Positions 1,255-39,240 of a stretch of DNA of 39,240 nucleotides are shown here, in pieces (within the stretch, counting starts at the first letter, position 1; each line of letters opens with the position of its first letter). The stretch covers positions 1 to 39,240 of the IMG/VR virus record IMGVR_UViG_2634166457_000020; one strand, written 5' to 3'. Source of the stretch: a virus (lineage: Duplodnaviria; Heunggongvirae; Uroviricota; Caudoviricetes). The translations under genes were made by a program, and so were the position numbers. The notes under the pieces are model-generated. The model ran no database searches. It was not told the origin of the DNA and saw only the letters and a list, made by a program, of their open reading frames with translations.

Positions 1255-1449
1255 TTAATTATTCTGCTGATTTTCTTCCATCTCGTCTTCTGCTGCCAGT
1301 GATTCAATTTTATCTGTGAACATTGCTGACAGTGTTGCAAATTCAGCATCAGTGACAGCGGGAATTGGAACAAACCTGATCCCGCTGTGTGCAAGCATGT
1401 TTGCAGTTTCAAGGCATTTCCTTAAATCTGCTGGTGATGCCCTGTTCAT
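1255..1449 (-). CDS. Small acidic hypothetical protein (64 aa, C-terminal EDEMEENQQNN), last gene of cargo operon
   Basis: Internal Met of the 1255..1569 ORF; its ATG (1449..1447) overlaps the methyltransferase stop (1448..1446) as ATGA, indicating translational coupling; no recognisable domain. Confidence 0.4.
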   Translation of the reverse strand: MNRASPADLRKCLETANMLAHSGIRFVPIPAVTDAEFATLSAMFTDKIESLAAEDEMEENQQNN

Positions 1450-2093
1450 GCTGCACGCTCCCGCCCCTGGTTGTCTGTTGGTGACAGCGGAGCATTGCTG
1501 AATGCATTTGTTAATCTGGCAATATCCAACGCGTATCCAGGGTGTAGTTGCACTGCCGGGTCTTCGCACTGATTACCCCAAACATCGAAGCCATGAGACG
1601 ACTGGCGGGCGAACAGTTCAATGCGAGAAACATCGCCTAACAATTGCACAAGTTTTTCACGCACGACATCTGGTTTTCTTGAATGCTCAAGCCGCGGTGC
1701 GGTAAATGACTGAACGATCCCTGCATTAATGCGCGTAGGTAGTTTTCCCTTTACCGCAAACAGGCAATCTTCACTATTGGCGCGAGTCATGTGTCCCATA
1801 CCCATAACCAGTTTATCTGGTTGTCGACTACCACATTTTATCCACGTGAATCCCTTCATGGTCATCAGACGGAATCCCCAGGCTTCAACAACTTTTAGTG
1901 CTTCGAGTGGTTGTGTTGGCACCCACCACATTGCCAACAGACAGTTTTCATCGGACAAATCCCACACAGGAAGGCGGCAGATATCCAGCACACTCATAAC
2001 CGGATATTTAAAACCAGCGCCGCGATTACCATCTGCGGCTTTGTCCCGGTATACCCAGGGTGGATCTGCATAGATTAGCGTGTATTTTTTCAT
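1446..2093 (-). CDS. MT-A70 family (beta-class) N6-adenine DNA methyltransferase, 215 aa
   Basis: N-terminal catalytic motif IYADPPWVY (DPPW) characteristic of MT-A70/N6-adenine methyltransferases; start taken at MKKYTLIYADPPW (ATG 2093..2091), which overlaps the upstream gene stop (2092..2090) as ATGA. Confidence 0.8.
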   Translation of the reverse strand: MKKYTLIYADPPWVYRDKAADGNRGAGFKYPVMSVLDICRLPVWDLSDENCLLAMWWVPTQPLEALKVVEAWGFRLMTMKGFTWIKCGSRQPDKLVMGMGHMTRANSEDCLFAVKGKLPTRINAGIVQSFTAPRLEHSRKPDVVREKLVQLLGDVSRIELFARQSSHGFDVWGNQCEDPAVQLHPGYALDIARLTNAFSNAPLSPTDNQGRERAA

Positions 2094-3193
2094 TGTTCTG
2101 CTCCCAGACTTCCTTTGGTAAAAGCTTGTATCAGCCTGTTTGCTGCCGCTTTCTGTGCTGCTACATTGGCAATAACTGATAGTTTTTCCTGGCTTGCTTT
2201 CGTGCAGATCCCAACCCAATTATCCATTAGGAAAAAATTCTCTCTTTCTGCGAAGTCAGTATTTGCACATAATGTTTCAATCATTGAAATTATTTCTTTT
2301 ATTGAGTGATTAACCATCATTTGCTGAACAGCATAACCAAAAGCGTTAATCATCACTGCATGAAACTGGATATATTCTCTTTTGTATTCTGATTGCTTTG
2401 TACCATGGCGAATTGCTTCTAGTTGTGTAAGACATAACCATGATTCCCATACTGACTCGATGTTACCAATTTCTAGTTTTTTTCCATTATGAATACAAAA
2501 TTTTGATGTTGAATCACTTAATGCTTTGAAACTCACCCACATGTTTGACTTTGACGGAACAACGTTGTGCTCGAAGTCAGTGACTTCTGCAAAAGTGTCA
2601 TGTTGCGACAGGAAAGACACCATTTCTTGGGCAACATCGTTTCGTCCGTCATACGCCATATTAATTGCTGCAGATGGTTTTGAAACATTATTATTAATGT
2701 CAGAAAAGAACTGCTGACGCGCCTTCAAAGGAAGGTTATGCGTAAGTATAAGAGGAATCATAATTGTTTCACCATAATTACGGCAGAACTCAGCTAATCC
2801 TGCAGCACGATGCTGTCCATCAAATAATTTTATTTCTGCATCCATAGGAAATCTAGCTAAACCGACATTAGTATTTCCAATCTCATGGAACTCTATTTCT
2901 GAGTTACAATTTCCGACCAATGGTGGAACAATAAATGGTTCCTTTTTCTCGTAAGCGTTGACTAAATATTGATAAAACTTTTTTACCCTGGTTGGATTAA
3001 TTTCACGTTGAGAACGTTCAAGGGTACTTCCCGTATTGTCGGTTGCCAATACTCTCGATAGTGCTCTTGCTGGTACTGTCATCATAAGTATTACAGTGCT
3101 TCCCTGCGTTCCTCGTGATGCGGGAAATTCAAAGAAATAATCGCCTACCTTGCTCATGATATTACCTTTTATATTATTGTTTTGTTTATTCAT
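2090..3193 (-). CDS. DGQHR-domain protein (DndB-like / ParB-like DNA-binding), 367 aa (or 355 aa if start is ATG at 3157)
   Basis: Contains the FDGQHRAAGL motif defining the DGQHR domain family; tight coupling to the downstream methyltransferase. Confidence 0.7.
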   Translation of the reverse strand: MNKQNNNIKGNIMSKVGDYFFEFPASRGTQGSTVILMMTVPARALSRVLATDNTGSTLERSQREINPTRVKKFYQYLVNAYEKKEPFIVPPLVGNCNSEIEFHEIGNTNVGLARFPMDAEIKLFDGQHRAAGLAEFCRNYGETIMIPLILTHNLPLKARQQFFSDINNNVSKPSAAINMAYDGRNDVAQEMVSFLSQHDTFAEVTDFEHNVVPSKSNMWVSFKALSDSTSKFCIHNGKKLEIGNIESVWESWLCLTQLEAIRHGTKQSEYKREYIQFHAVMINAFGYAVQQMMVNHSIKEIISMIETLCANTDFAERENFFLMDNWVGICTKASQEKLSVIANVAAQKAAANRLIQAFTKGSLGAEQ

Positions 3194-6281: not shown

Positions 6282-6371
6282 TTACCTCGGTCTGTTACCG
6301 TTGAGGTAATAATTATGCGTATCTGGTTTGGTGTCAATAGATATGAGTTAAAAAAATTACCCATTAGGTAA
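6282..6371. promoter_or_regulatory. Leftward operator/promoter cluster (OL-like): TTACC-GTTGA-GGTAA (6295-6309), TTACC-CATTA-GGTAA (6357-6371), extra TTACC half-site 6282-6286
   Basis: Perfect 15-bp inverted repeats between the repressor terminator and the first leftward gene. Confidence 0.6.
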
Positions 6372-6428: not shown

Positions 6429-7013
6429 TTATTGTTTGTTTTTTTCGTTCTGGTTGATGACAAATTCAATGTAACTTTCGATCTTTGCTTTCTCGGTTTC
6501 GGGTAACAATGCGTAGCGCGAGCGATCATAGTTGATGGTCGCAGGGTCGTGCGGGTGAATCAGTAATTCATAGCCGTGACGCCCGAATGCGGATGCAACA
6601 TTCTCCAGGGTGGAAATGGAAACGCTGACCTCATTGTTTAACAGGCGGCTGATTGTCACCTGGGCGACGCCGGATGCGCGGTGAAGTTTTCCCTGAGTTG
6701 AAAGGTCGCGGCTTTCGCTCATCCAGCGTTCCAGGTTGTGAGCCGCCAGCTGACCAATGTCGCTTGGGCCGACAGGCTGAAAACCTTCCTGAGAAAGCGA
6801 GCGATCGATATCAAGCCAGTTACGGGGTTTATTGGCGGCAGCTTCAATTTTTCGCGCAACCTGGTCGCCGATAACCTTCTTGCCAAGAGCCCAGCGGTTT
6901 ACCAGATTTGCCTGAGTTCCAAGTTTTTCTGCCATCCGCGTCTGAACACCATTGAATTCACGGTCGATCAAGTCGTTGAGATTTTGCCTGCGGACGTCCT
7001 GGATACTTTTCAT
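6429..7013 (-). CDS. Phage repressor-like protein with two tandem XRE-type helix-turn-helix domains, 194 aa; no S24 peptidase domain
   Basis: HTH 1 TRMAEKLGTQANLVNRWALGKK; HTH 2 KLHRASGVAQVTISRLLNNEVSVSISTLENVASAFG; located between two operator clusters and divergent from a Cro-like gene. Confidence 0.65.
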   Translation of the reverse strand: MKSIQDVRRQNLNDLIDREFNGVQTRMAEKLGTQANLVNRWALGKKVIGDQVARKIEAAANKPRNWLDIDRSLSQEGFQPVGPSDIGQLAAHNLERWMSESRDLSTQGKLHRASGVAQVTISRLLNNEVSVSISTLENVASAFGRHGYELLIHPHDPATINYDRSRYALLPETEKAKIESYIEFVINQNEKNKQ

Positions 7014-7068
7014 TTTCTGGAAAATCGCCTCATATATGAATCAGTAGATGATTCAATTTAAAGCAATA

Positions 7069-7131
7069 TTACCCAACAGGTAAATGCACCCCATAGGTAA
7101 CTATCCTTGATTTTTGTTACCTTATGGGTGA
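7069..7131. promoter_or_regulatory. Rightward operator/promoter cluster (OR-like), three sites: TTACC-CAACA-GGTAA (7069-7083), GCACC-CCATA-GGTAA (7086-7100), TTACC-TTATG-GGTGA (7117-7131)
   Basis: Three adjacent 15-bp palindromic sites in the 154-bp divergent region between repressor start (7013) and Cro-like start (7168); candidate -35 TTGATT at 7105-7110. Confidence 0.65.
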
Positions 7132-7167
7132 ATATTTATTATCTGAAATAAATATCAGGCAATAGCT

Positions 7168-7398
7168 ATGAGCGATAACGGACATTTCGATTTCAAAAAG
7201 CACTGGCTTGCACTTACTCCGGATGAGCGTGAAGCCTTCGCACAGGAAGCCGGAACGACGAGTCACTATATCCAGACTCACTTAACAGGTAAGCGCAAAA
7301 TGCCAGGTAAGGTATTGATGAATGGGCTTTTTAAAGCCTGTAAAACAAGACAATGGCTGCGCTCAAAAGCAGAACTGGCATACTTCTTCTACTCATGA
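7168..7398 (+). CDS. Cro-like small DNA-binding regulator (YdaS-like), 76 aa
   Basis: Small protein divergent from the repressor with an HTH-like segment (EREAFAQEAGTTSHYIQTHLTGKRK). Confidence 0.55.
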   Translation: MSDNGHFDFKKHWLALTPDEREAFAQEAGTTSHYIQTHLTGKRKMPGKVLMNGLFKACKTRQWLRSKAELAYFFYS

Positions 7399-12819: not shown

Positions 12820-13032
12820 ATGCCAAAAATACGCTACGACCTTGAAGATATGAGAGATAACTCAGCAAATTTTCCGAAAGAGGTTAAATTTCTTATGAAT
12901 AAGTATGGTTGCGCCAGGAGGGATATAGTTATCGACAGTCAGCACCCTTGCGGTGAGGATGTAATTTTCATTCGCGGTAAATGGGAAGGGTATCTTGACG
13001 AGAGTTTTTACGATGAATTTGATGGACTTTGA
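12820..13032 (+). CDS. Hypothetical small protein, 70 aa
   Basis: ORF between the palindrome at 12796-12810 and the terminator at 13038-13063. Confidence 0.35.
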   Translation: MPKIRYDLEDMRDNSANFPKEVKFLMNKYGCARRDIVIDSQHPCGEDVIFIRGKWEGYLDESFYDEFDGL

Positions 13033-13037
13033 ATACT

Positions 13038-13063
13038 GCCGCCAACTATGGCGGCTTTATTTT
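13038..13063 (+). terminator. Rho-independent terminator upstream of terminase genes (GCCGCC-AACTAT-GGCGGC plus TTTATTTT)
   Basis: 6-bp GC stem followed by T-rich tract. Confidence 0.6.
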
Positions 13064-13097
13064 GCATGGTACTATTACCACAACGGTAACTATTACC

Positions 13098-13703
13098 ATG
13101 GTGGTTATGATGCCTGCTGAACCTAAAACCTATAAACGCAAATCAACGCAATTTAAGCCACTAACAGCAATGCAGGAGGCTTATTGCCAGTCATACATCA
13201 AAACGCCTGAAAACCAGACTCAGGCTGCGATTAACGCAGGATTCTCCCCAAATACAGCGGCAGTTAAAGCCAGTGTCATGATGCGCGATGAACGCATTCA
13301 GAAACGGATTGCCGAGTTGATGGAGGAGCGCAACAAACGAATGCGCGTCAGTGCTGATTACGTTCTCATGCGCCTGGTGGAGATCGACCAGATGGACGTG
13401 ATCGACATCCTCAACGACGATGGGAGCCTTAAACCAATCCGTGAGTGGCCGAAAATCTGGCGCACTACGCTTAGTGGCTTTGATCTGTCGTCGACCATCA
13501 TGAACATGAACGAGGATTCGATAGAGACAATCCTCAAAAAAATTAAATGGCCTGACAAGGTGAAGAACCTTGAGCTGATTGGTAAGCATGTTGATGTCAA
13601 CGCGTTCAAAGAACGTCTGGATGTTAATGTGAATGTGACAATTGCTGATCGCATAGCAGCAGCCAGGAAGCGACTCAAAGAACGTCAGGATGGTAATCAG
13701 TGA
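13098..13703 (+). CDS. Terminase small subunit, about 201 aa; start uncertain (13098, 13107 or 13110)
   Basis: Sequence YCQSYIKTPENQTQAAINAGFSPNTAAVKASVMMRDERIQKRIAEL resembles the HTH-type terminase small subunit family; stop overlaps the large subunit start (GTGA). Confidence 0.7.
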   Translation: MVVMMPAEPKTYKRKSTQFKPLTAMQEAYCQSYIKTPENQTQAAINAGFSPNTAAVKASVMMRDERIQKRIAELMEERNKRMRVSADYVLMRLVEIDQMDVIDILNDDGSLKPIREWPKIWRTTLSGFDLSSTIMNMNEDSIETILKKIKWPDKVKNLELIGKHVDVNAFKERLDVNVNVTIADRIAAARKRLKERQDGNQ

Positions 13704-15175
13704 CAGATACAGCGTTATCTCCTGAAGAGCAGTTGATCGAGGATATTGCAGGGTTCACTCACGATCCGCTTGGCTATGCCCTCTATGCGTTCCCGTGGGG
13801 GGAAGAAGGGACTGAACTGGCACATGCTACCGGCCCACGTCAGTGGCAGGCTGATGCGTTCCGAGAGATACGTGATCACCTGCAGAATCCAGCGACGCGC
13901 TATCAGCCGCTTATGCTGGCACGCGCTTCTGGTCACGGTATTGGTAAATCCGCATTCATCTCAATGCTGATCAACTGGGGCATGTCCACTTGCGAGGATT
14001 GTAAGGTCGTGGTGACCGCCAACACCGACAACCAGCTACGAACGAAGACCTGGCCGGAAATTATCAAGTGGTCGAACCTTGCTATCACGAAAGACTGGTT
14101 TACCTGTACCGCTACCGCGATGTACAGCAATGATCCTGGGCACGACAAGCGGTGGCGAGCTGACGCAATCCCCTGGTCTGAGCACAACACTGAGGCATTC
14201 GCCGGACTACACAACGAGCGCAAACGCATCATCGTGGTATTCGATGAAGCGTCGAACATTGCGGATCTGGTGTGGGAAGTTGCTGAGGGTGCGCTTACGG
14301 ACGAAGACACTGAGATTATCTGGGTGGCGTTCGGAAACCCTACACGTAACACCGGGCGTTTCCGCGAATGTTTCCGCAAATATAAACACCGCTGGAAAAC
14401 TGCGCAGATTGACAGCCGGACGGTGGAAGGCACTAACAAACAGCAGTTGCAGAAATGGGTTGATGACTACGGGGAAGACAGCGACTTCGTTAAAATCCGT
14501 GTGCGCGGCATATTCCCGGATGCATCTGAATTGCAGTTTATCCCTACCGGACTTACTGACGAGGCAATGAAACGGGTGGTCACCGCTGCGCAGGTTGCAC
14601 ATGCTCCGGTGATAATCGGCGTTGACCCGGCATACTCAGGCGTTGATGACGCTGTGATATACCTGCGGCAGGGGCTGCACAGTAAGGTGCTGTGGACTGG
14701 CAACAAGACCACTGACGATCTGATTATGGCGAAGCGTATCGCTGACTTTGAAGACCAGTACCAGGCTGACGCAGTGTTCATCGACTTCGGTTACGGAACT
14801 GGTCTGAAGTCAATCGGTGACGGCTGGGGTCGTACATGGCAACTTGTTCCGTTCGGTGGCGCGTCTACTGACCCGCAGATGCTCAACAAGCGTGGGGAGA
14901 TGTTCAACTCATGTAAGACATGGCTGAGGCTGGGCGGCATGCTGGATGACCAGGAAACTGCAGACGACCTGTCGGCGGCAGAGTACAAAGTTCGAGTGGA
15001 CGGTAAAATCGTTATCGAACCGAAGGAAGATATCAAAGAGCGACTTGGGCGTTCGCCGGGTAAAGGCGATGCGCTGCTGCTGACGTTTGCTTTCCCGGTG
15101 TCGAAGCGCCTGCGACTTCCCGGGCAGCAGAACCAGCAAGGCAAGGCGCTTACCGAGTACGATCCATATGCTTAG
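13700..15175 (+). CDS. Terminase large subunit, 491 aa
   Basis: Walker A-like LARASGHGIGKSAF, Walker B-like IIVVFDEASNI, C-terminal nuclease-like region; typical size and position. Confidence 0.9.
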   Translation: MTDTALSPEEQLIEDIAGFTHDPLGYALYAFPWGEEGTELAHATGPRQWQADAFREIRDHLQNPATRYQPLMLARASGHGIGKSAFISMLINWGMSTCEDCKVVVTANTDNQLRTKTWPEIIKWSNLAITKDWFTCTATAMYSNDPGHDKRWRADAIPWSEHNTEAFAGLHNERKRIIVVFDEASNIADLVWEVAEGALTDEDTEIIWVAFGNPTRNTGRFRECFRKYKHRWKTAQIDSRTVEGTNKQQLQKWVDDYGEDSDFVKIRVRGIFPDASELQFIPTGLTDEAMKRVVTAAQVAHAPVIIGVDPAYSGVDDAVIYLRQGLHSKVLWTGNKTTDDLIMAKRIADFEDQYQADAVFIDFGYGTGLKSIGDGWGRTWQLVPFGGASTDPQMLNKRGEMFNSCKTWLRLGGMLDDQETADDLSAAEYKVRVDGKIVIEPKEDIKERLGRSPGKGDALLLTFAFPVSKRLRLPGQQNQQGKALTEYDPYA

Positions 15176-15768
15176 TCTTTATTTTTATCCTCGAAACCTG
15201 ATAATCCAGATAGAACACCAAAGTTATTAAAAACGTCTGGCTTACCAGATTTTAATCCGGATAAGTTGTGTTGCTCCAAAAAGTTGCTAATTGTTTGGCC
15301 GTTGCCAAGTGCAAGACTTTTTATTTGAGATTTTTCAGGGTATTTGAGTTTGTATTCGTCGAAATCATTTTGGAGGGTCTTATATGCCTCATTCATTCTT
15401 CCCAGAGTTTCCGATATCTCTTTTAATGAATGATTTAGAGCTGCTAACTGAGCACTGGCGGATCTCAATTCGTCATCTTTAGCTTTCAACTCGGCAGTCA
15501 ATTCCCCCATACTATTCTTTGATCGAATAATCTCTTCTTTCATCTCTTGGATGTCTTTTTCCGCGCCAGTCTTAACTTTGTCGTATGTAACATCTTTTTT
15601 AGCCAATAACCTCTGCAGTCTGGTTTCACGCTGGATTTTTCTTGCCTTCAGGTGATTATCGATTGAGTCATTATTATCAAGAGGCTTTGCTTGCCATACG
15701 TTAATGATATTGTTTACCCATGGTAATAGGCAGCAGATAGCAATTACAGATAAGCATGGATAAAACAT
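15172..15768 (-). CDS. Moron-encoded membrane-anchored coiled-coil protein, 198 aa
   Basis: N-terminal hydrophobic anchor LSVIAICCLLPW then long K/E-rich heptad-like region; AT-rich, antisense to the late operon; stop overlaps terminase stop (TTAG). Confidence 0.55.
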   Translation of the reverse strand: MFYPCLSVIAICCLLPWVNNIINVWQAKPLDNNDSIDNHLKARKIQRETRLQRLLAKKDVTYDKVKTGAEKDIQEMKEEIIRSKNSMGELTAELKAKDDELRSASAQLAALNHSLKEISETLGRMNEAYKTLQNDFDEYKLKYPEKSQIKSLALGNGQTISNFLEQHNLSGLKSGKPDVFNNFGVLSGLSGFEDKNKD

Positions 15769-15777
15769 AACAGTTTT

Positions 15778-15990
15778 TCATGTGCTGTTATCTGAGATAT
15801 ATGAAATTTTATCTATTATGTTTGATTTGCTAAAAAATAGATAAAGAATTGATTTCCAGTTGAAGGCGCACCAGGACATAACAAAAGCACCAAGCACAGG
15901 GTTTTTGGCTCGATTCACGGCAGTATTGGCAGTAGATAAAAACAGCTCTTTGAAGGATTCAAACATGCTAATTACCTTGAAGTTTTTCAT
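15778..15990 (-). CDS. Moron-encoded small membrane protein, about 70 aa
   Basis: Start at MKNFKV (ATG 15990..15988) with AAGG SD; hydrophobic segment PVLGAFVMSWCAFNW; 9 bp upstream of the 198-aa gene. Confidence 0.45.
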   Translation of the reverse strand: MKNFKVISMFESFKELFLSTANTAVNRAKNPVLGAFVMSWCAFNWKSILYLFFSKSNIIDKISYISDNST

Positions 15991-16025
15991 GATTATACCT
16001 TTAAGGTAATTTGCGGTCATCAAGC

Positions 16026-16049
16026 AAAAAAATGCCCGGCGAACCGGGC
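16026..16049 (-). terminator. Rho-independent terminator on minus strand (GCCCGG-CGAA-CCGGGC plus U-tract), downstream of the tRNA
   Basis: 6-bp GC stem 16034-16049 with A-run 16026-16032 on plus strand. Confidence 0.6.
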
Positions 16050-16212
16050 GAACTGGAAGCAATGAGTTATGCCTTCCGTGGCTGTACTGGTTTACAGCAT
16101 GAAGTCATCGCAATGGCGTCCTGCTGTAAAAAGGGCGGTGATAGTCCTTCAAGGGAAACCATCACCGCCAAGCCCCTGGAACTTCTGGCATCACGGTCCT
16201 TAGGCGTGATTC

Positions 16213-16289
16213 TGGCGTGGCATGCAGGATTCGAACCTGCGACCAACCGCTTAGAAGGCGGTTGCTCTGTCCAACTGAGCTAATGCCAC
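16213..16289 (-). tRNA. tRNA-Arg (anticodon UCU, reads AGA), 77 nt including encoded CCA
   Basis: Manually folded cloverleaf: acceptor GUGGCAU/AUGCCAC, D-stem GCUC/GAGC, anticodon stem ACCGC/GCGGU with loop CUUCUAA, T-stem GCAGG/CCUGC with loop UUCGAAU, discriminator G, CCA. Confidence 0.85.
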
Positions 16290-16716
16290 AACGCTGAGAG
16301 CACTTAGCCTGTTAAGGCACCACACTTTGTCGCGGCTCCATAAATGCTCTCATCGTTGTACCCTCGTCTCTTCCGAGGCGTCACACCGAATCGCCGGGAT
16401 GGTGAATCCCCGTGCGCGGAATAAAACCGCTCGACTTGCACATTCCGGCTACCTGGTTCGTTTGCCCGAGCAAGGGAGGGTGCCCCTTAAACGTATCCAG
16501 ACCGCTATCGTCGCATGTGCCATACGCCGTACTGCTCAAAATAAAAGCTCACTCCACCTGTTCAATTTAACGACAAGCCAGTCAGGTTAGTAACCGGAAT
16601 GAACCCTTTAGTTACCTGAAGGGTAATAATTCGCGCGTTAAATGTCAACTGTCTACGATAAATAAATCATATGTGGTTAAATTGGTAATGATTTAATTGC
16701 GTACGGAGTCATTGAT

Positions 16717-16937: not shown

Positions 16938-18617
16938 ATGGCGGAAACAACTAAAGAGCGATTGAACAAACAGTTCGCACAACTTGAAAGCGAGCGTCAG
17001 TCGTTCGAGCCGCACTGGCGCGAGTTGAGTGATTACATCAACCCGCGTGGTTCCCGCTTTCTGACTTCTGAGGTCAACCGTAACGATCGACGCAATACAC
17101 GCATTATTGATTCGACCGGGACTATGGCGGCGCGCACTCTCGCCAGCGGCATGATGTCAGGCATCACAAGCCCCGCGCGTCCGTGGTTTCGCTTGGCTAC
17201 GCCAGATCCTGAAATGATGGATTATGGCCCTGTTAAGTTGTGGCTTGAGGCGGTGCAGAACCGCATGAACGATATGTTCAATAAGTCGAATCTCTACCAG
17301 TCTCTTCCGCAGTTATACGGAAGCCTCGGCACATACAGCACCGGTGCAATGGCGGTACTGGAGGATGACGAGGACATCATTCGCACAATGCCATTCCCGA
17401 TAGGCAGTTACTACCTGGCTAACTCACCTCGTGGCAGTGTGGACACCTGTTTTCGCAAGTTCTCTATGACTGTTCGTCAGCTTGTTCAGGAGTTCGGGCT
17501 AAATAACGTCAGCGAATCCGTAAAAAGCATGTGGGAAAGCGGCACCTACGAGAAGTGGATTGAAGTGATGCATTCGGTTTACCCGAACATTGACCGCGAT
17601 ACATCGAAGCTGGATAGCAAGAACAAGCCATTCAAATCGGTTTATTACGAGGTTGGTGGCGATAACGACAAGTTGTTGCGTGAGTCCGGATTCGATGAGT
17701 TTCCAATTATGGCTCCGCGCTGGGAAGTTAACGGCGAAGATGTTTATGGATCATCATGCCCGGGTATGCTGGCGCTTGGACCTGTTAAGGCATTGCAGCT
17801 TCTCCAGAAGCGCAAGTCGCAGTTGATTGATAAAGCCACCAATCCGCCGATGGTTGCTCCGACTTCCCTCAAGAATCAGCGCGCCTCCCTTCTTCCTGGC
17901 GACATCACGTATATCGATCAGATTACTGGTCAGGATGGTTTCAGGCCTGCTTATCTGGTTAACCCCAGTACAGCAGATCTGGTAGCAGACATTCAGGACA
18001 CTCGCCAAATCATTAACAGCGCCTACTTTGTCGATCTGTTCATGATGTTGCAGAACATCAATACCCGCTCGATGCCTGTTGAAGCAGTGATCGAAATGAA
18101 AGAAGAAAAGCTTCTGATGTTGGGGCCGGTTCTGGAGCGTCTGAACGACGAATGTCTTAATCCTCTCATTGACCGCGCTTTCTCGATGATGGTGCGTAAA
18201 AACATGCTGCCGCCACCGCCTGACGCGATGGAAGGCATGCCCCTGAAGGTCGAATACATTTCCGTCATGGCTCAGGCGCAGAAGTCTATCGGCCTGTCCA
18301 GTCTGGCGTCCACGGTTAACTTCATTGGTCAACTTGCGCAAGCGAAACCAGAAGCTCTCGACAAACTCAATGTTGATCAGGCGATCGATGCATTCGCTGA
18401 TATGTCCGGAGTGTCTCCAACCGTCATTGTTCCGCAGGAACAGGTTGAGCAGGCTCGCCAGCAACGGGCACAGCAGCAACAGCAGCAACAAATGATGGCG
18501 ATGGGAATGGCGGCGGCACAGGGCGCCAAGACGCTAAGCGAAGCTAAAACTTCGGATCCGAGTGTTTTGTCAGCTATGGCGAATGCAGTTAGTGGTCAGG
18601 GTGGGCAATCACAATGA
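16938..18617 (+). CDS. Portal (head-tail connector) protein, 559 aa
   Basis: Size, position after terminase, N-terminal ERQSFEPHWRELSDYINP and Q-rich C-terminal tail typical of podovirus portal proteins. Confidence 0.8.
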   Translation: MAETTKERLNKQFAQLESERQSFEPHWRELSDYINPRGSRFLTSEVNRNDRRNTRIIDSTGTMAARTLASGMMSGITSPARPWFRLATPDPEMMDYGPVKLWLEAVQNRMNDMFNKSNLYQSLPQLYGSLGTYSTGAMAVLEDDEDIIRTMPFPIGSYYLANSPRGSVDTCFRKFSMTVRQLVQEFGLNNVSESVKSMWESGTYEKWIEVMHSVYPNIDRDTSKLDSKNKPFKSVYYEVGGDNDKLLRESGFDEFPIMAPRWEVNGEDVYGSSCPGMLALGPVKALQLLQKRKSQLIDKATNPPMVAPTSLKNQRASLLPGDITYIDQITGQDGFRPAYLVNPSTADLVADIQDTRQIINSAYFVDLFMMLQNINTRSMPVEAVIEMKEEKLLMLGPVLERLNDECLNPLIDRAFSMMVRKNMLPPPPDAMEGMPLKVEYISVMAQAQKSIGLSSLASTVNFIGQLAQAKPEALDKLNVDQAIDAFADMSGVSPTVIVPQEQVEQARQQRAQQQQQQQMMAMGMAAAQGAKTLSEAKTSDPSVLSAMANAVSGQGGQSQ

Positions 18618-36107: not shown

Positions 36108-36136
36108 AAAAAGGCGGCAATGCCGCCTTTGTTTTA
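36108..36136. terminator. Bidirectional rho-independent terminator between tailspike (+) and acyltransferase (-): GGCGGC-AAT-GCCGCC flanked by A-run and T-run
   Basis: 6-bp stem 36113-36127 with AAAAA upstream and TTTGTTTTATTTT downstream. Confidence 0.65.
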
Positions 36137-37252
36137 TTTTATCTTGTATCTTTTTTCAATTTTATTATACAGGATGGCGGAAAGTATAATTGCTAATGTT
36201 ATCGCCCCAAACTGCATCAATATAAAATATCTGGCTGATGTTTGCTCTAGGTTGATAAATTTGCTGTAAGAATTGAATGTAATGTTAAGCGATAACTGAT
36301 GTACTAAATACAAACTGTAACTTATAATACCAATATTCGATATGCTTCTTTTAGAAAAAATAGACGGTCTGGATGCGATAAATGCCATGAAAAATACTGA
36401 TGTCGCGCAGAACATTTCGAATTCATATACTTTAAAATCACCAAAAATCGAATATATAAAGAGCAATGGCATTACGATCCACAAAGCATGTTTCAAATAA
36501 TTATTTGCAGGTTGCTTTATGTACGAAGCAATAAATCCTGTCAGGAAGTATGTCCACATTATTTGTTCGTTCTGATATCCAAGATATATGATTATCAGAG
36601 CTAAAGGTATTAAAGATATTCTTAACGGTTTAATAGCAAATGCACAGGCAAGAAATGGAACTGCTGCATAATATTTCCATTCGTAAGGTAACGTCCATGT
36701 AACAATATTAAGACTCCAGTCCCATATTGATCCGACCCTGATCCCACCCCCCCAGAAACCAAACCCATAAACACTACGAATGACTGTCATTACCTCATCA
36801 ATAGTTTTTATTTGCCCGTATCTCTGGAACATGAAAATTGCAAAAACTATTGTGGAAACAACAACGTATGCAGGAAGTAATCTATAAATCCTTTTCTGGA
36901 AAAAAGAGATATCGAAAATTCCCTTTTTTATAGTAGATGAAAATAAAAAACCTGTTAAGCAAAAGAATATGGATACTCCAAACGCACCCATTTTTTCAAA
37001 TGCGTACGCTGGCTGAATATTCATGTATGGTGATTTTAATCCTATAGCGGCAATTACAGTGTATGAGTGGTTAACGAAAACTAATAGACACGCAACTCCA
37101 CGCAAGCCCTCAAGGCTAAGGTCGTTATGGCTGCCAATTGGCGATATGTCTACAAACTTGTTTAGAACATAGCAAACACATACAGCAAATGTTACAAAAG
37201 AAAATGCATATACTGAATTATGTATACTAAGTAAGGGGAGTAAATTATCCAT
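36134..37252 (-). CDS. Acyltransferase family 3 integral membrane protein (probable O-antigen/surface polysaccharide O-acetyltransferase), 372 aa
   Basis: Motif LEGLRGVACLLVFVNH and many transmembrane segments typical of acyltransferase-3 proteins; AT-rich; adjacent to the tailspike. Confidence 0.75.
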   Translation of the reverse strand: MDNLLPLLSIHNSVYAFSFVTFAVCVCYVLNKFVDISPIGSHNDLSLEGLRGVACLLVFVNHSYTVIAAIGLKSPYMNIQPAYAFEKMGAFGVSIFFCLTGFLFSSTIKKGIFDISFFQKRIYRLLPAYVVVSTIVFAIFMFQRYGQIKTIDEVMTVIRSVYGFGFWGGGIRVGSIWDWSLNIVTWTLPYEWKYYAAVPFLACAFAIKPLRISLIPLALIIIYLGYQNEQIMWTYFLTGFIASYIKQPANNYLKHALWIVMPLLFIYSIFGDFKVYEFEMFCATSVFFMAFIASRPSIFSKRSISNIGIISYSLYLVHQLSLNITFNSYSKFINLEQTSARYFILMQFGAITLAIILSAILYNKIEKRYKIK

Positions 37253-37436
37253 TTAATCCTTGGCTCATTATCTTTAGTTTAATAAACAAAATTTTATTGA
37301 TGAATTTCGCAAGTGTATCACCCAAAAGGTAATTTTGGTAGGAGTTATTCTGGGTAATTCAAATCATATGTGGTTTATTGTGTATGATATGATCACCAAC
37401 TAAGGGGGTCTTTATGCACGGTAACAGGTGGTTTTT

Positions 37437-37841
37437 ATGTCAGTTCAGCTAACCAGTGAGTCTTTAAATCAGTGGCTTAGCGTGAGTTCTCTTGCTGCAG
37501 TGATAGCAGGTGTCCCTCCAGAGGTGGCTTTGGGAGCTTTGGCGGGGGCGGTAATTTTTGTTACCTCCGCCATCGAATACCCCATTCATCGCCGTGTTCT
37601 CCTGTCGATGCTCAGTTTCCTCTGCGGCCTTCTATTTTACAAACCAACAGCATCCATCCTTATCGGTATCGCTAGCCTGATACCTACCATCACGCAGGAC
37701 TCTTTCGAGAAAGGGATCGTCTTCTCTGCTGGCGCATTTGTGTCGGCAATTGTCGCTGTGCGAATTGGCATCTGGCTCTATCACCGTTCCGATAATCCAC
37801 GCGAGTTAATTCCGGGGAGAAAAGACGATGGTAACTCATGA
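37437..37841 (+). CDS. Putative holin (multi-pass membrane protein), about 134 aa
   Basis: 3-4 predicted transmembrane segments; first gene of cluster ending in endolysin and spanins; ATG 37437 with AGGTGG SD. Confidence 0.5.
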   Translation: MSVQLTSESLNQWLSVSSLAAVIAGVPPEVALGALAGAVIFVTSAIEYPIHRRVLLSMLSFLCGLLFYKPTASILIGIASLIPTITQDSFEKGIVFSAGAFVSAIVAVRIGIWLYHRSDNPRELIPGRKDDGNS

Positions 37842-38136
37842 TTTTTTTTTGCTTATCACCAATGCAGCTATCTGTACTGGCATAGCAGTTCGCGTTGTCA
37901 CTTTCCAGCGTAACGGATCTCAACACCGAAGATGGGGGGGCTGGCTGGCTTATTTCCTGATTGTTGCTACGGCCAGTATTCCTGTTCGTGTCGTCTATGC
38001 AATCTGGTTACGCACGCCAATAGCTGTGGATTTATCTGAGGTCATTATCAATGCTGTCATGCTTGCTGCGGTTATTAAAACTCGCGGTAACGTCGTACAG
38101 ATTTTCAAAATAACGAGGTCTAAACATGGAGATTAA
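37828..38136 (+). CDS. Second small membrane protein of lysis cassette (holin or antiholin candidate), 102 aa
   Basis: 2-3 predicted transmembrane segments; overlaps neighbours on both sides. Confidence 0.45.
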
Positions 38137-38755
38137 ACAATTCCAGCGAGCTGCTGGTGTTAGCGAGGCGCTGGCCGCACGCTGGTTCTCGCATATAACT
38201 TCTGCGATGAAAGAGTTTGGTATCAGCAAACCCGAAGATCAGGCAATGTTTATTGCTCAGGTCGGGCATGAGTCTGGGGGCTTCACCCGGTTGCAGGAGA
38301 ATTTTAACTACAGCGTCACCGGACTGGCTAACTTTGTTCGGACAGGACGTCTCACTCAGGGACAAGCCAACGCATTGGGGCGTCGCGCAGGTGAACCACC
38401 ATTGCCACTTGAGCGACAGCGCGCAATCGCCAATTTGGTGTACAGCAAACGTATGGGGAACAATGCTCCTTGTGATGGCTGGAATTACCGTGGGCGCGGA
38501 CTTATCCAGATTACCGGTTTGAATAACTATCGTGACTGCGGAAACGGCATGAAAGTTGATCTGCTGGAGAATCCTGAACTGTTGGCGCAGGACGAATATG
38601 CGGCTCGTAGCGCGGCGTGGTTCTTCTCCAGCAAAGGCTGCATGAAGTATACCGGAGATATTGCACGTGTAACTCTGATTATCAATGGTGGCAGGAATGG
38701 CATCGACGACCGGCGTGCGCGGTACGTCACTGCCAGTAAGGTGCTGGCGGTATGA
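38126..38755 (+). CDS. Endolysin, glycoside hydrolase family 19 (chitinase-like lysozyme), 209 aa
   Basis: Motifs [12 protein letters not shown] and [16 protein letters not shown] typical of GH19-type phage endolysins. Confidence 0.8.
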
Positions 38756-39240
38756 TCCTGGCATTCGTAAAAGCATACCGGAAACAGTTGTTTATCGTGG
38801 CGATGCTTGTTGTTCTGGTCATATCCTTAGTTGTTGCCTGGAATGTACATGGCGGTCGTCAGTACGACGCTGGGTATGCGCAGGCGAAGGAAGATCAGAA
38901 ACAGGCTGATGATAAGTTAAGGTCACAGCGTGAGCAGGAGAAAACACAAATTGAACGTGAAGCACAATTCCGTATCGATGCGGCGCGTGCTGATGCTGAG
39001 TATGCTAATACCGCTGCTGACAGCATGCGCGCCGAGCTTGACAAAACCAAGCGACTCGCCGAACACTATACCGGATCTTTCCCCCCAGGCACGCCAGCCA
39101 GCAAGGTCATCGGTGTGCTCGCCGACATGCTTGAAGAAAGCAACCGAGTTTACAATGCAACAGCAGTTGAGGCTGAAAAGTATCGTATTGCAGGGGAAAT
39201 CTGCGAGCAGCAATACGACTCATTGAAGAAGCAAAAATAG
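38752..39240 (+). CDS. Rz-like inner-membrane spanin (i-spanin), 162 aa
   Basis: N-terminal transmembrane helix [18 protein letters not shown] followed by coiled-coil region; ATGA overlap with endolysin stop; contains an embedded +1 frame lipoprotein ORF. Confidence 0.7.
38978..39226 (+). CDS. Rz1-like outer-membrane lipoprotein spanin (o-spanin) embedded in Rz, about 82 aa
   Basis: Signal peptide with lipobox LLTAC followed by proline-rich mature region; entirely inside the Rz gene in +1 frame. Confidence 0.55.
   Translation: MRRVLMLSMLIPLLTACAPSLTKPSDSPNTIPDLSPQARQPARSSVCSPTCLKKATEFTMQQQLRLKSIVLQGKSASSNTTH

What the first reader, a model, noticed from the sequence alone, without database searches (positions are those of the whole stretch)
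15172..15990. AT-rich antisense moron inside the late operon: two membrane proteins of unknown function
Seen in sequence: between the terminase large subunit and the structural genes sit two minus-strand genes that are visibly more AT-rich than their surroundings, with stop codons overlapping the terminase stop (TTAG at 15172-15175). One encodes a 198-aa protein with an N-terminal membrane anchor and a long K/E-rich coiled coil, the other an about 70-aa single-pass membrane protein. A minus-strand terminator (16026-16049) and a tRNA lie just upstream. Inference: this is the signature of a horizontally acquired moron expressed independently of late transcription. A two-protein membrane module in this position is a good candidate for superinfection exclusion or abortive-infection defence, or a host-fitness factor; neither protein shows a motif I recognise.
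Basis: partly seen in the sequence, partly recalled or inferred. Interest (0 to 1): 0.75.

Follow-up and report, generated by a model that had tools for sequence, protein, structure and literature searches.

The report
One broken phage membrane gene
The "two membrane genes" are the halves of one prophage accessory gene cut by a single stop-codon mutation; the intact gene belongs to a widespread, unstudied phage family whose layout and locations suggest, but do not prove, a role in blocking rival phages.

Summary
The sequence features are real. An AT-rich (GC 0.37 vs 0.48) minus-strand coding region at 15172-15990 lies between TerL and the portal operon. Its stop overlaps the TerL stop, and a terminator and tRNA-Arg lie upstream.

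It is one gene, not two. Both ORFs are in the same frame and match consecutive parts of PHROG 4780. Relatives carry one CDS at exactly these coordinates. The window differs from the closest one by a single base, TGG>TGA at 15778 (W71*).

The intact protein has an amphipathic helix, a two-helix membrane hairpin and one long, probably cytoplasmic, coiled coil. Residues 9-167 are conserved (74-81% identity, dN/dS about 0.05-0.12). Residues 168-272 are a swappable cassette (17%).

Family members sit as single genes in this slot in 60 of 68 viral contigs. They also occur in lambdoid phages, ParA-bearing phage elements and the P2 gpA-gpQ defence hotspot.

No Pfam, NCBIfam, PADLOC, PDB or fold match exists. 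An exclusion or abortive-infection role is plausible but untested.

The promoter carries a palindrome shared with the phage's immunity-region and lytic promoters. Expression in lysogens is therefore not assured.

The parts
15172..15990 (-). One accessory (moron) gene. Relatives annotate it as a 272-codon CDS. Here it is interrupted in frame.
   Evidence: Both ORFs share one frame. Both hit PHROG 4780, at positions 1-62 and 67-267. A single 819-nt CDS is annotated at the same place in L003-L006. The closest relative differs by one nucleotide.
15778..15780 (-). In-frame TGA: Trp71>stop (TGG>TGA, G>A at 15778 as read on the gene strand).
   Evidence: All four E. coli relatives have TGG. W71 is at least 90% conserved in the family. 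The same TGA occurs in 5 other assemblies.
15964..15966 (-). Probable true start codon (M9 of the annotated 272-aa form, giving 264 aa when intact).
   Evidence: Nearly all homologues start here (MLES/MFES). The upstream ATG at 15990 is absent in most relatives and lies 2 nt after the -10 hexamer.
15781..15966 (-). N-terminal fragment left by the mutation: amphipathic helix, first hydrophobic helix (residues 31-53) and a short loop helix.
   Evidence: Translation. AF2 helices 5-27, 31-43, 45-53 and 58-68. Kyte-Doolittle maximum 1.23 for residues 35-53.
15172..15768 (-). 198-aa downstream ORF: the second membrane helix running straight into the long coiled coil and a disordered K/D/N tail. Its ATG lies 9 nt after the TGA with no obvious Shine-Dalgarno.
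   Evidence: Kyte-Doolittle 2.15 for residues 74-92. A single helix spans residues 71-216 at pLDDT above 90. 71% of a/d heptad positions are hydrophobic against 35% overall.
15484..15966 (-). Constant module (residues 9-about 169): membrane hairpin plus the basic helix next to the membrane.
   Evidence: Mean pairwise identity is 74-81%. dN/dS is 0.05-0.12 where measurable. DNA is 94.5% identical to L038 down to 15483.
15100..15483 (-). Replaceable cassette: the variable C-terminal module of the protein (15172-15483) plus the last ~25 codons of TerL.
   Evidence: Mean pairwise identity is 17% for residues 168-272. There is no DNA similarity to L038 between 15483 and 15099, with 94-96% on both sides.
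15992..16020 (-). Sigma-70-like promoter of the gene: -35 ATGACC (16020-16015), 17-nt spacer, -10 TATAAT (15997-15992).
   Evidence: The consensus scan gave 10 of 12 matches. The TGAC[CT]-N-TACC..GGTA-TAnAAT layout is conserved upstream of divergent family members.
15996..16008 (.). 13-bp palindrome TACCTTAAAGGTA between -35 and -10, overlapping the -10. Candidate operator.
   Evidence: TACC-N5-GGTA occurs 8 times in the window against 0.56 expected. Copies cluster in the repressor/Cro-like intergenic region and upstream of the TerS and portal genes, with a near-copy upstream of the holin gene. Positions upstream of portal and at the TerS start are conserved in related loci.
16026..16049 (-). 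Backbone terminator (GCCCGGTTCGCCGGGC plus T-run) ending the tRNA unit. It marks the right edge of the variable slot.
   Evidence: Similarity to prophages with other or no cargo resumes at 16026.
16134..16169 (-). Second terminator-like hairpin (14-bp stem) just downstream of the tRNA.
16213..16289 (-). tRNA-Arg (anticodon TCT). It belongs to the phage backbone, not to the moron.
   Evidence: It is present in prophages with every kind of cargo and with a nearly empty slot.
13700..15175 (+). Terminase large subunit, convergent with the gene. The stop codons overlap.
   Evidence: PHROG 2 and 5902. Sequence.
15178..16025 (.). The variable cargo slot of this phage lineage.
   Evidence: Breakpoints lie at 15177 and 16026 against L001, L012, L013 and L016. 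About 499 of 5426 E. coli genomes carry both flanks, with spans from 1370 to 2208 bp.
16613..16625 (+). Copy of the palindrome (TACCTGAAGGGTA followed by ATAAT) upstream of the portal operon. Its layout matches the moron promoter.
   Evidence: The position is conserved in related loci.

Best explanation
Shown here:
- The locus is one gene. It is a single-gene accessory cassette in the TerL/portal slot of an epsilon15/phiV10-like (Uetakevirus) prophage.
- When intact it encodes a protein of about 264 aa: an amphipathic helix, a two-helix membrane hairpin, then one continuous helix of about 145 residues that leaves the membrane as a coiled coil, then a disordered K/D/N-rich tail.
- In this window the gene carries a TGG>TGA nonsense mutation at codon 71.

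Inferred for this allele:
- At most a 62-70-aa N-terminal fragment is made, perhaps together with a 198-aa re-initiation product or a trace of read-through full-length protein.
- This copy is therefore most likely a null or a strong hypomorph.

Inferred for the family:
- It is a phage-borne factor directed against competing phages.
- The conserved membrane hairpin and the helix next to the membrane form the working part. They could disturb the membrane or block a step at its inner face.
- The hypervariable cytoplasmic end decides which phage component is recognised.
- Because the variable part is predicted to be cytoplasmic, I favour an abortive-infection-like sensor/effector over a block to DNA entry in the periplasm.

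The confidence of 0.4 applies to the anti-phage function. The one-gene/nonsense reading is near certain.
For: One gene with a nonsense lesion:
- Same frame; one PHROG profile hit by both halves.
- A single CDS in relatives and a single-base difference.
- 66 of 68 viral loci encode what look like full-length proteins of 233-274 aa.

Architecture:
- AF2 with a diverse alignment gave pLDDT 84.5, with helix 71-216 above 90.
- Hydropathy and heptad periodicity agree.
- There are 9 K/R in the 38 residues after the second membrane helix. By the positive-inside rule this puts the coiled coil in the cytoplasm.

Selection and mosaic structure:
- dN/dS is 0.05-0.12 in the constant module.
- Identity falls from 74-81% to 17% at about residue 168.
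- DNA breakpoints lie at 15483 and 15099.

Accessory, exchangeable and phage-borne:
- The slot boundaries are sharp.
- In E. coli the slot holds at least five family variants (272, 274, 246, 233 and 201 aa), two unrelated cargos, or almost nothing.
- The family member lies in the same slot in 60 of 68 IMG/VR loci.
- Single-gene family members also occur in lambdoid phages and ParA-bearing phage elements.
- One lies between gpA and the portal gene of a P2/186-like prophage. That locus is an experimentally validated anti-phage hotspot (PMC9122126).
Against: - No functional evidence of any kind exists for this family.
- There is no hit to any PADLOC defence model beyond coiled-coil noise.
- There is no Pfam or NCBIfam family.
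- There is no PDB or fold relative.
- Hotspot location is guilt by association.
- The variable C-terminus could reflect weak constraint on a spacer rather than an arms race.
- The first hydrophobic helix is only weakly hydrophobic (Kyte-Doolittle 1.23), so the topology is not secure.
- The promoter carries the phage's own palindrome. The gene may therefore be silent in lysogens and act during lytic growth.
- Independent loss-of-function alleles recur. This could mean the gene is dispensable or costly.
Confidence: 0.4

Rival explanations
1. A lytic-cycle phage gene rather than a lysogeny-expressed moron. A phage regulator binding TACC-N5-GGTA holds the promoter off in the lysogen, and the protein is made on infection or induction. 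It could then shut out secondary phages during lytic growth (in the manner of T4 Imm/Sp), manipulate the host membrane, or anchor a cytoplasmic phage process.
For: - The palindrome sits between -35 and -10 of the gene's promoter.
- The same palindrome occurs three times between the HTH repressor-like ORF (6429-7013) and a Cro-like ORF, flanks a leftward promoter at 6296/6358, and precedes the TerS and portal genes, with a near-copy before the holin gene.
- The portal-upstream promoter has the same layout.
- The sites upstream of portal and at the TerS start are conserved across the lineage.
- Distant family members in other phage backbones lack the palindrome. The wiring is therefore specific to this phage lineage.
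Against: - The binding protein and the sign of regulation are unknown.
- A single isolated site may bind only weakly.
- The gene converges head-on with TerL, which is awkward if both are transcribed at the same time.
- The slot is almost empty or holds unrelated cargo in many viable relatives, so the gene is not needed for lytic growth.
- The palindrome is kept in a Klebsiella phage (L011) that has no other copy in the 12.7 kb fetched, including its repressor/Cro-like genes.
Confidence: 0.25
2. A lysogenic-conversion or host-fitness factor unrelated to phage competition, for example a membrane protein that alters envelope physiology, stress tolerance or colonisation.
For: It is a single membrane protein on a prophage with its own promoter and foreign composition. 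Such morons often serve the host.
Against: - The sharp constant/variable mosaic with cassette swapping is more typical of a molecular arms race.
- The family is found only on phage backbones in every context examined.
- One paper reports that lysogeny by a related phage had no effect on growth, biofilm, stress response or virulence (PMC9782041). That phage matched only the tRNA side of my query (H15), so whether it carries this gene is unknown.
Confidence: 0.1
3. One reading: two separate membrane proteins that work together as a two-component module.
For: - Two ORFs are called in this allele, and NCBI annotates both in one genome (KNA41322/KNA41323).
- The ATG of the second ORF lies only 9 nt after the TGA, so termination and re-initiation could yield both polypeptides (inference).
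- The W71* allele is seen in six independent assemblies.
Against: - Every other family member examined is a single ORF.
- The split is caused by one base change at a conserved Trp.
- Different lesions (W40*, a frameshift, C-terminal truncations) hit the same gene in other strains. That is the pattern of inactivation, not of a designed split.
- No Shine-Dalgarno precedes the second ATG.
Confidence: 0.03
4. A gene with no cellular function that persists by hitch-hiking in a recombination-prone slot.
For: Loss-of-function alleles recur. Many relatives do without it.
Against: Strong purifying selection acts on the constant module while synonymous sites are saturated. 66 of 68 viral copies look full length. 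The promoter is conserved.
Confidence: 0.05

Closest known systems
PHROG 4780, with PHROGs 13369, 35327, 22645 and 8191 sharing the N-terminal module
   Same: This is direct sequence membership. The two halves hit positions 1-62 (E 2.8e-35) and 67-267 (E 7.2e-92) of the 275-position profile.
   Different: The PHROG has no known function, so membership names the family but explains nothing. The window copy is nonsense-interrupted.
P22 SieA (prophage inner-membrane superinfection-exclusion protein; Leavitt et al. 2024, PMC10883804)
   Same: Both are small single-gene prophage accessory proteins set among virion genes. SieA is shown to be in the inner membrane; this protein is predicted to be. 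SieA also occurs as several very divergent sequence types.
   Different: SieA is 162-164 aa with three predicted membrane helices and no coiled coil. It carries the motif FxRYPxEAxxFNK, which is absent here. No sequence relationship was detected. The variable part here is predicted to be cytoplasmic.
Accessory cargo of the P2 gpA-gpQ anti-phage hotspot (old, tin and others; Rousset et al. 2022, PMC9122126)
   Same: A 514-aa family member (P0223) lies exactly between gpA and the portal gene of a P2/186-like prophage. The window locus is likewise a cargo slot next to the packaging genes, with many alternative inserts.
   Different: Nothing I read in the paper's main text resembles this family. 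Its supplementary tables were not searched. Location is the only link.
Membrane-effector abortive-infection proteins (lambda RexB; the transmembrane effectors of CBASS, retron and similar systems)
   Same: Both have a small membrane module that could act on the membrane. Rousset et al. note that membrane proteins in defence systems are generally thought to be suicide effectors.
   Different: Those effectors work with a separate sensor protein or a signalling nucleotide. Here a single polypeptide would have to sense and act. There was no Pfam hit to any 2TM effector family.
Two-component spanin inner-membrane subunit (Rz-like)
   Same: Both have a membrane anchor followed by a long coiled coil.
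   Different: The phage has its own Rz-like gene (DUF2514, 38752-39240) in the lysis cassette next to the holin and endolysin. The gene studied here is far from that cassette, has no lipoprotein partner, is dispensable, and is predicted to face the cytoplasm.

Membership tests
PHROG 4780 | Significant full-length match to the family profile | tested here: met
   E 7.2e-92 (profile positions 67-267) and 2.8e-35 (positions 1-62) for the two halves.
Moron (independent accessory transcription unit in a phage genome) | Present or absent, or replaced, between otherwise collinear relatives | tested here: met
   The slot 15178-16025 is replaced by other cargo or nearly empty in L001, L012, L013 and L016.
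Moron (independent accessory transcription unit in a phage genome) | Base composition different from the flanking phage genes | tested here: met
   GC 0.366 against 0.48. Across 68 loci the gene is 0.33-0.46 against flanks of mostly 0.5-0.6.
Moron (independent accessory transcription unit in a phage genome) | Own promoter | tested here: inconclusive
   A conserved sigma-70-like promoter is predicted. No transcript data are available.
Moron (independent accessory transcription unit in a phage genome) | Own terminator downstream of the gene | tested here: not met
   The stop codon overlaps the TerL stop. The only hairpin is a weak 5-bp one inside the coding region at 15249-15236.
P22 SieA superinfection-exclusion family | About 160-200 aa, three or four membrane helices, cytoplasmic motif FxRYPxEAxxFNK | tested here: not met
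   264-272 aa, two hydrophobic helices plus a 145-residue helix. The motif is absent from the sequence. The SieA features are taken from PMC10883804.
Known anti-phage defence systems (PADLOC-DB 2.0) | Significant match of the protein to a defence-system model outside low-complexity or coiled-coil regions | tested here: not met
   The best hits (DndD 3.1e-5, PbeC, LmuB, JetC) all align only to the coiled coil, residues about 92-258.
Two-component spanin, inner-membrane subunit | Located in the lysis cassette with an adjacent or embedded outer-membrane lipoprotein gene | tested here: not met
   The lysis cassette is at 37428-39240: holin PF16931, a GH19 endolysin and Rz-like DUF2514. This gene lies 21 kb away and is a singleton.
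Pfam 2TM effector or holin families | Pfam match at or above the gathering threshold | tested here: not met
   No family reached threshold for the query or for 54 diverse members.
   Only coiled-coil-level hits to tape-measure or head PHROGs (E>0.003). The gene is absent from viable relatives such as phiV10.

The most novel reading that the evidence does not exclude
The family is a previously unrecognised class of single-polypeptide, phage-borne anti-phage proteins. A conserved inner-membrane hairpin acts as effector. It is rigidly coupled, through one continuous helix, to a hypervariable cytoplasmic coiled-coil tip that recognises a component of competing phages. Cassette swapping at the tip retargets it. 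In Uetakeviruses the gene has additionally been wired into the phage's own TACC-N5-GGTA regulon.
Probability: 0.3. Interest if true: 0.65.

Novelty: new variant of a known kind. Interest (0 to 1): 0.45.

Why it matters
For this window, the result corrects the annotation. The locus holds one gene, mutated, not a two-protein module. Any experiment should use the intact TGG allele.

For the family, about 9% of complete E. coli genomes (499 of 5426) carry this phage's TerL/tRNA slot. A completely uncharacterised membrane/coiled-coil family is a frequent occupant of that slot. The family has a very sharp constant/variable boundary and also turns up in a validated P2 defence hotspot.

If it proves to be an exclusion or abortive-infection factor, it would add a one-protein sensor-effector design to the prophage defence repertoire. 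Its natural set of swappable specificity cassettes would be ready for testing.

The scattered palindrome suggests that this phage lineage controls many promoters, including this cargo gene, through one regulator. That bears on when prophage cargo genes are actually expressed.

Tried and rejected
- Pfam, NCBIfam and PADLOC scans of the intact protein gave only coiled-coil noise.
- A Pfam scan of 54 diverse family members found no shared domain.
- A profile search of PDB sequences found nothing below E 0.028, all of it coiled coil.
- The first AF2 model, built from close homologues, was poor (pLDDT 66). A diverse alignment raised it to 84.5.
- A literature search for the protein accessions and the PHROG id returned nothing. 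Searches for Uetakevirus exclusion, terminase/portal hotspots and prophage coiled-coil defence found nothing on this family.
- The neaT paper, found through 'phiV10 moron', concerns the acyltransferase, not this gene.
- Searching with the C-terminal cassette alone returned only three fragments. It did not even recover known full-length relatives, so it says nothing about cassette sharing.
- Spanin, SieA and structural-protein readings were considered and rejected (see the membership tests).
- I considered that the palindrome might be an MqsA-type site (ACCT-N3-AGGT, from memory). Only some copies fit that pattern, so I did not pursue it.
Full report
**1. What is in the sequence**

The window is a complete epsilon15/phiV10-like (Uetakevirus) prophage. 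It runs from an integrase (1-1251) to an Rz-like gene (38752-39240).

Around the finding the order is:
- TerS, 13029-13703 (+)
- TerL, 13700-15175 (+)
- two minus-strand ORFs, 15172-15768 (198 aa) and 15778-16062 (70 aa from the ATG at 15990)
- two minus-strand terminator-like hairpins, 16049-16034 and 16169-16134
- tRNA-Arg(TCT), 16213-16289 (-)
- a 68-aa ORF
- the portal gene, 16938-18617

- GC is 0.366 against 0.480 for the window, in the lowest 2.9% of 819-bp windows.
- The minus-strand TAA (15174-15172) overlaps the TerL TAG (15173-15175).

**2. One gene, not two**

- Translating 16062-15172 in one frame gives ...YISDNST*KTVMFYPC... The two ORFs share a frame and are separated by one TGA and three sense codons.
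- Against PHROGs, the 70-aa ORF matches positions 1-62 of phrog_4780 and the 198-aa ORF matches positions 67-267 of the same profile (E 2.8e-35 and 7.2e-92).
- In four E. coli prophages, RefSeq annotates a single 819-nt CDS that corresponds exactly to window 15172-15990.
- The closest of these differs from the window within the gene by one base, G>A at gene nt 213 (window 15778). This changes TGG (Trp71) to TGA. All four relatives have TGG.
- Trp71 is at least 90% conserved across the family.
- All 19 close copies in IMG/VR are intact, and 66 of 68 viral loci encode what look like full-length proteins.

The 'two membrane proteins' are therefore the two halves of one protein.

The allele is real rather than a sequencing error. 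The same TGA occurs in five other independent assemblies.

The same gene is also hit by other lesions elsewhere:
- W40* in L093
- a frameshift in L092 and L095
- C-terminally truncated products of 110-181 aa

That is the signature of recurrent inactivation.

What remains of function in this copy is unknown. The ATG of the 198-aa ORF lies 9 nt after the TGA and has no obvious Shine-Dalgarno, so re-initiation is possible but unproven. From general knowledge, not tested here: UGA is the leakiest stop codon in E. coli, and misreading by tRNA-Trp would restore the wild-type residue.

**3. The start codon and the promoter**

Nearly all homologues begin at the residue equivalent to M9 (MLES/MFES).

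The consensus scan finds -35 ATGACC (16020-16015), a 17-nt spacer and -10 TATAAT (15997-15992). The annotated ATG at 15990 lies only 2 nt after that -10 and is absent from most relatives. The real start is therefore probably the ATG at 15966, giving 264 aa when intact.

The promoter layout TGAC[CT]-N6-TACC-N5-GGTA-TAnAAT is conserved upstream of divergent family members.

**4. The protein**

- With a diverse alignment, AlphaFold2 gives mean pLDDT 84.5, above 90 for residues 31-210.
- The model has a helix at 5-27, helices at 31-53, a short helix at 58-68, then one unbroken helix from 71 to 216, and a disordered tail.
- Residues 74-92 are strongly hydrophobic (Kyte-Doolittle 2.15). Residues 35-53 are only moderately so (1.23).
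- The 38 residues after the second hydrophobic helix contain 9 K/R. By the positive-inside rule this places the long helix in the cytoplasm and implies an N-in/C-in hairpin. This is an inference.
- In residues 108-216, 71% of a/d heptad positions are hydrophobic in the best register, against 35% overall. That fits a coiled coil.
- No Pfam, NCBIfam or PADLOC family matches beyond coiled-coil noise.
- No PDB sequence relative or fold relative was found.

**5. The family and its evolution**

- 177 homologues were found in the 5.8-billion-sequence set.
- 321 clusters at 50% identity scored E<=1e-10 in the exhaustive profile search. Nearly all are 200-350 aa with the same layout.
- Across 53 members, mean pairwise identity is 74% for residues 9-100 and 81% for residues 101-167. 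It is 17% for residues 168-272, with the step falling between residues 161-170 and 171-180.
- At the DNA level the window is 94.5% identical to L038 from 16700 down to 15483. There is then no similarity until 15099, after which identity returns to 96%. The C-terminal third, together with the last ~25 codons of TerL, is a replaceable cassette.
- Against L053 the whole unit is replaced, between 16026 and 15171.
- In the constant module, dN/dS is 0.05-0.12 where measurable. Synonymous sites are saturated in most comparisons.

This is an old gene under strong selection, not a recent arrival.

**6. Where family members sit**

- In 60 of 68 IMG/VR loci, the gene lies in this same slot and converges on TerL. 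This holds in phages whose portal proteins are as little as about 60% identical to the window's.
- The gene is AT-rich in all of them, 0.33-0.46 against flanks of mostly 0.5-0.6.
- About 499 of 5426 complete E. coli genomes carry both flanks of the slot.
- The slot contents seen in E. coli are:
  - family variants of 272, 274, 246, 233 and 201 aa
  - an unrelated Phage_gp49_66-family gene, as in phiV10
  - an unrelated 139-aa gene
  - almost nothing
- Single-gene family members also occur in lambdoid phages (L011, L090) and next to ParA in other phage elements (L086, L089).
- One 514-aa member (L087) lies between gpA and the portal gene of a P2/186-like prophage. Rousset et al. showed experimentally that this P2 locus is a hotspot of anti-phage systems (PMC9122126).

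**7. How it most likely works**

The points above are shown. The following is inferred:
- The gene is a phage accessory factor.
- Its constant membrane module does the work.
- Its variable cytoplasmic tip sets specificity.
- It probably acts against competing phages.
- Because the variable end is predicted to be cytoplasmic, recognition of a cytoplasmic phage component followed by an effect on the membrane (abortive-infection-like) fits slightly better than a periplasmic block to DNA entry of the SieA type.

I put about 0.4 on an anti-phage role and near certainty on the one-gene/nonsense reading.

**8. An important caveat: regulation**

The 13-bp palindrome TACCTTAAAGGTA (15996-16008) lies between the -35 and -10 of the gene's promoter.

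TACC-N5-GGTA occurs 8 times in the window against 0.56 expected, with a maximum of 3 in 200 shuffles.

The copies and near-copies are placed as follows:
- Three lie in the 7014-7167 gap between an HTH repressor-like ORF (6429-7013; HTH_3) and a Cro-like ORF (7168-7398).
- Two flank a leftward promoter at 6296 and 6358.
- Others precede the 9480 ORF, TerS (13076), the portal operon (16613), and, as near-copies, the tailspike region (33231) and the holin gene (37319).

The sites upstream of portal and at the TerS start are conserved in related phages. Distant family members in other backbones lack the palindrome.

This looks like the operator of a phage regulator that touches most promoters, including this one. 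If the regulator is the prophage repressor, the gene would be off in lysogens and on during infection or induction. Nothing here can settle that.

**9. Comparison with known systems**

- It is a member of PHROG 4780, whose function is unknown.
- It is not a SieA. SieA has 162-164 aa, three membrane helices and the FxRYPxEAxxFNK motif, and those features were not found here (PMC10883804).
- It is not a spanin. The phage has its own DUF2514 gene in the lysis cassette.
- It is not a structural protein, and it matches no model in PADLOC.
- It resembles prophage single-gene exclusion or abortive-infection proteins only in being small, membrane-bound, accessory and located in hotspots.

**10. Verdict**

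The locus is one nonsense-mutated copy of a widespread, uncharacterised phage membrane/coiled-coil gene.

The copy in this window is of limited interest in itself. The family, with its conserved membrane module, swappable tip, hotspot locations and wiring into the phage's palindrome network, deserves an experiment with the intact allele.

Noticed in passing
window 6296, 6358, 7070, 9401, 9463, 13076, 15996, 16613 (exact); 7088, 7119, 7455, 33231, 37319 (near-copies): The palindrome TACC-N5-GGTA, usually followed by an ATAAT-like -10, occurs 8 times against 0.56 expected. Copies cluster in the repressor/Cro-like gap and lie in front of most transcription units. It looks like a genome-wide operator set for one phage regulator. 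I found no published operator for this phage group.
   Followed up: partly
window 15964-15990: The 272-aa annotation used by RefSeq for relatives probably starts 8 codons too early. Homologues start at M9, and the upstream ATG sits 2 nt after the predicted -10.
   Followed up: yes
L092, L093, L095 and proteins P0027, P0136, P0138, P0144, P0145: The same allele has been inactivated independently several times in E. coli: W71*, W40*, a frameshift near codon 54, and several C-terminal truncations. TerL and portal next door are annotated at full length where the locus includes them (portal runs off the locus end). The gene may be costly, or simply dispensable.
   Followed up: partly
L012, L013, L016 (window slot 15178-16025): The unrelated cargos in the slot are a Phage_gp49_66-family gene and a 139-aa gene. 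Both lack the palindrome promoter and start right after the tRNA terminator behind an AAGGTGAG ribosome-binding site. The 'empty' slot keeps what looks like the remnant of the same start region.
   Followed up: partly
window 15099-15175: The last ~25 codons of TerL diverge together with the C-terminal cassette of the moron in the comparison with L038. This is probably hitch-hiking on the recombination end-point, but co-variation was not tested.
   Followed up: no
window 1446-3193 (-): A second AT-rich island (GC minimum 0.36) next to the integrase. It encodes an MT-A70 methyltransferase-like protein and a DndB-like protein (PF14072). This could be a DNA-modification or counter-defence pair.
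   Followed up: no
window 36134-37252 (-): A third AT-rich island (GC minimum 0.33) with an Acyl_transf_3 gene between the tailspike and the lysis genes. phiV10 also carries an acyltransferase of this family (the neaT-homologue table in PMC3573123). From memory, the phiV10 enzyme modifies the O157 antigen.
   Followed up: no
window 16213-16289 and 15172-15966: The backbone tRNA-Arg reads AGA. Half of the moron's Arg codons are AGA (4 of 8), against about 10% (33 of 324) in the late genes.
   Followed up: partly
L087 6001-7545: A 514-aa family member in the P2 gpA/portal hotspot carries, after the coiled coil, a long Ala/Ser-rich repeat (SAMSAAWAAATK...) that shorter members lack.
   Followed up: no
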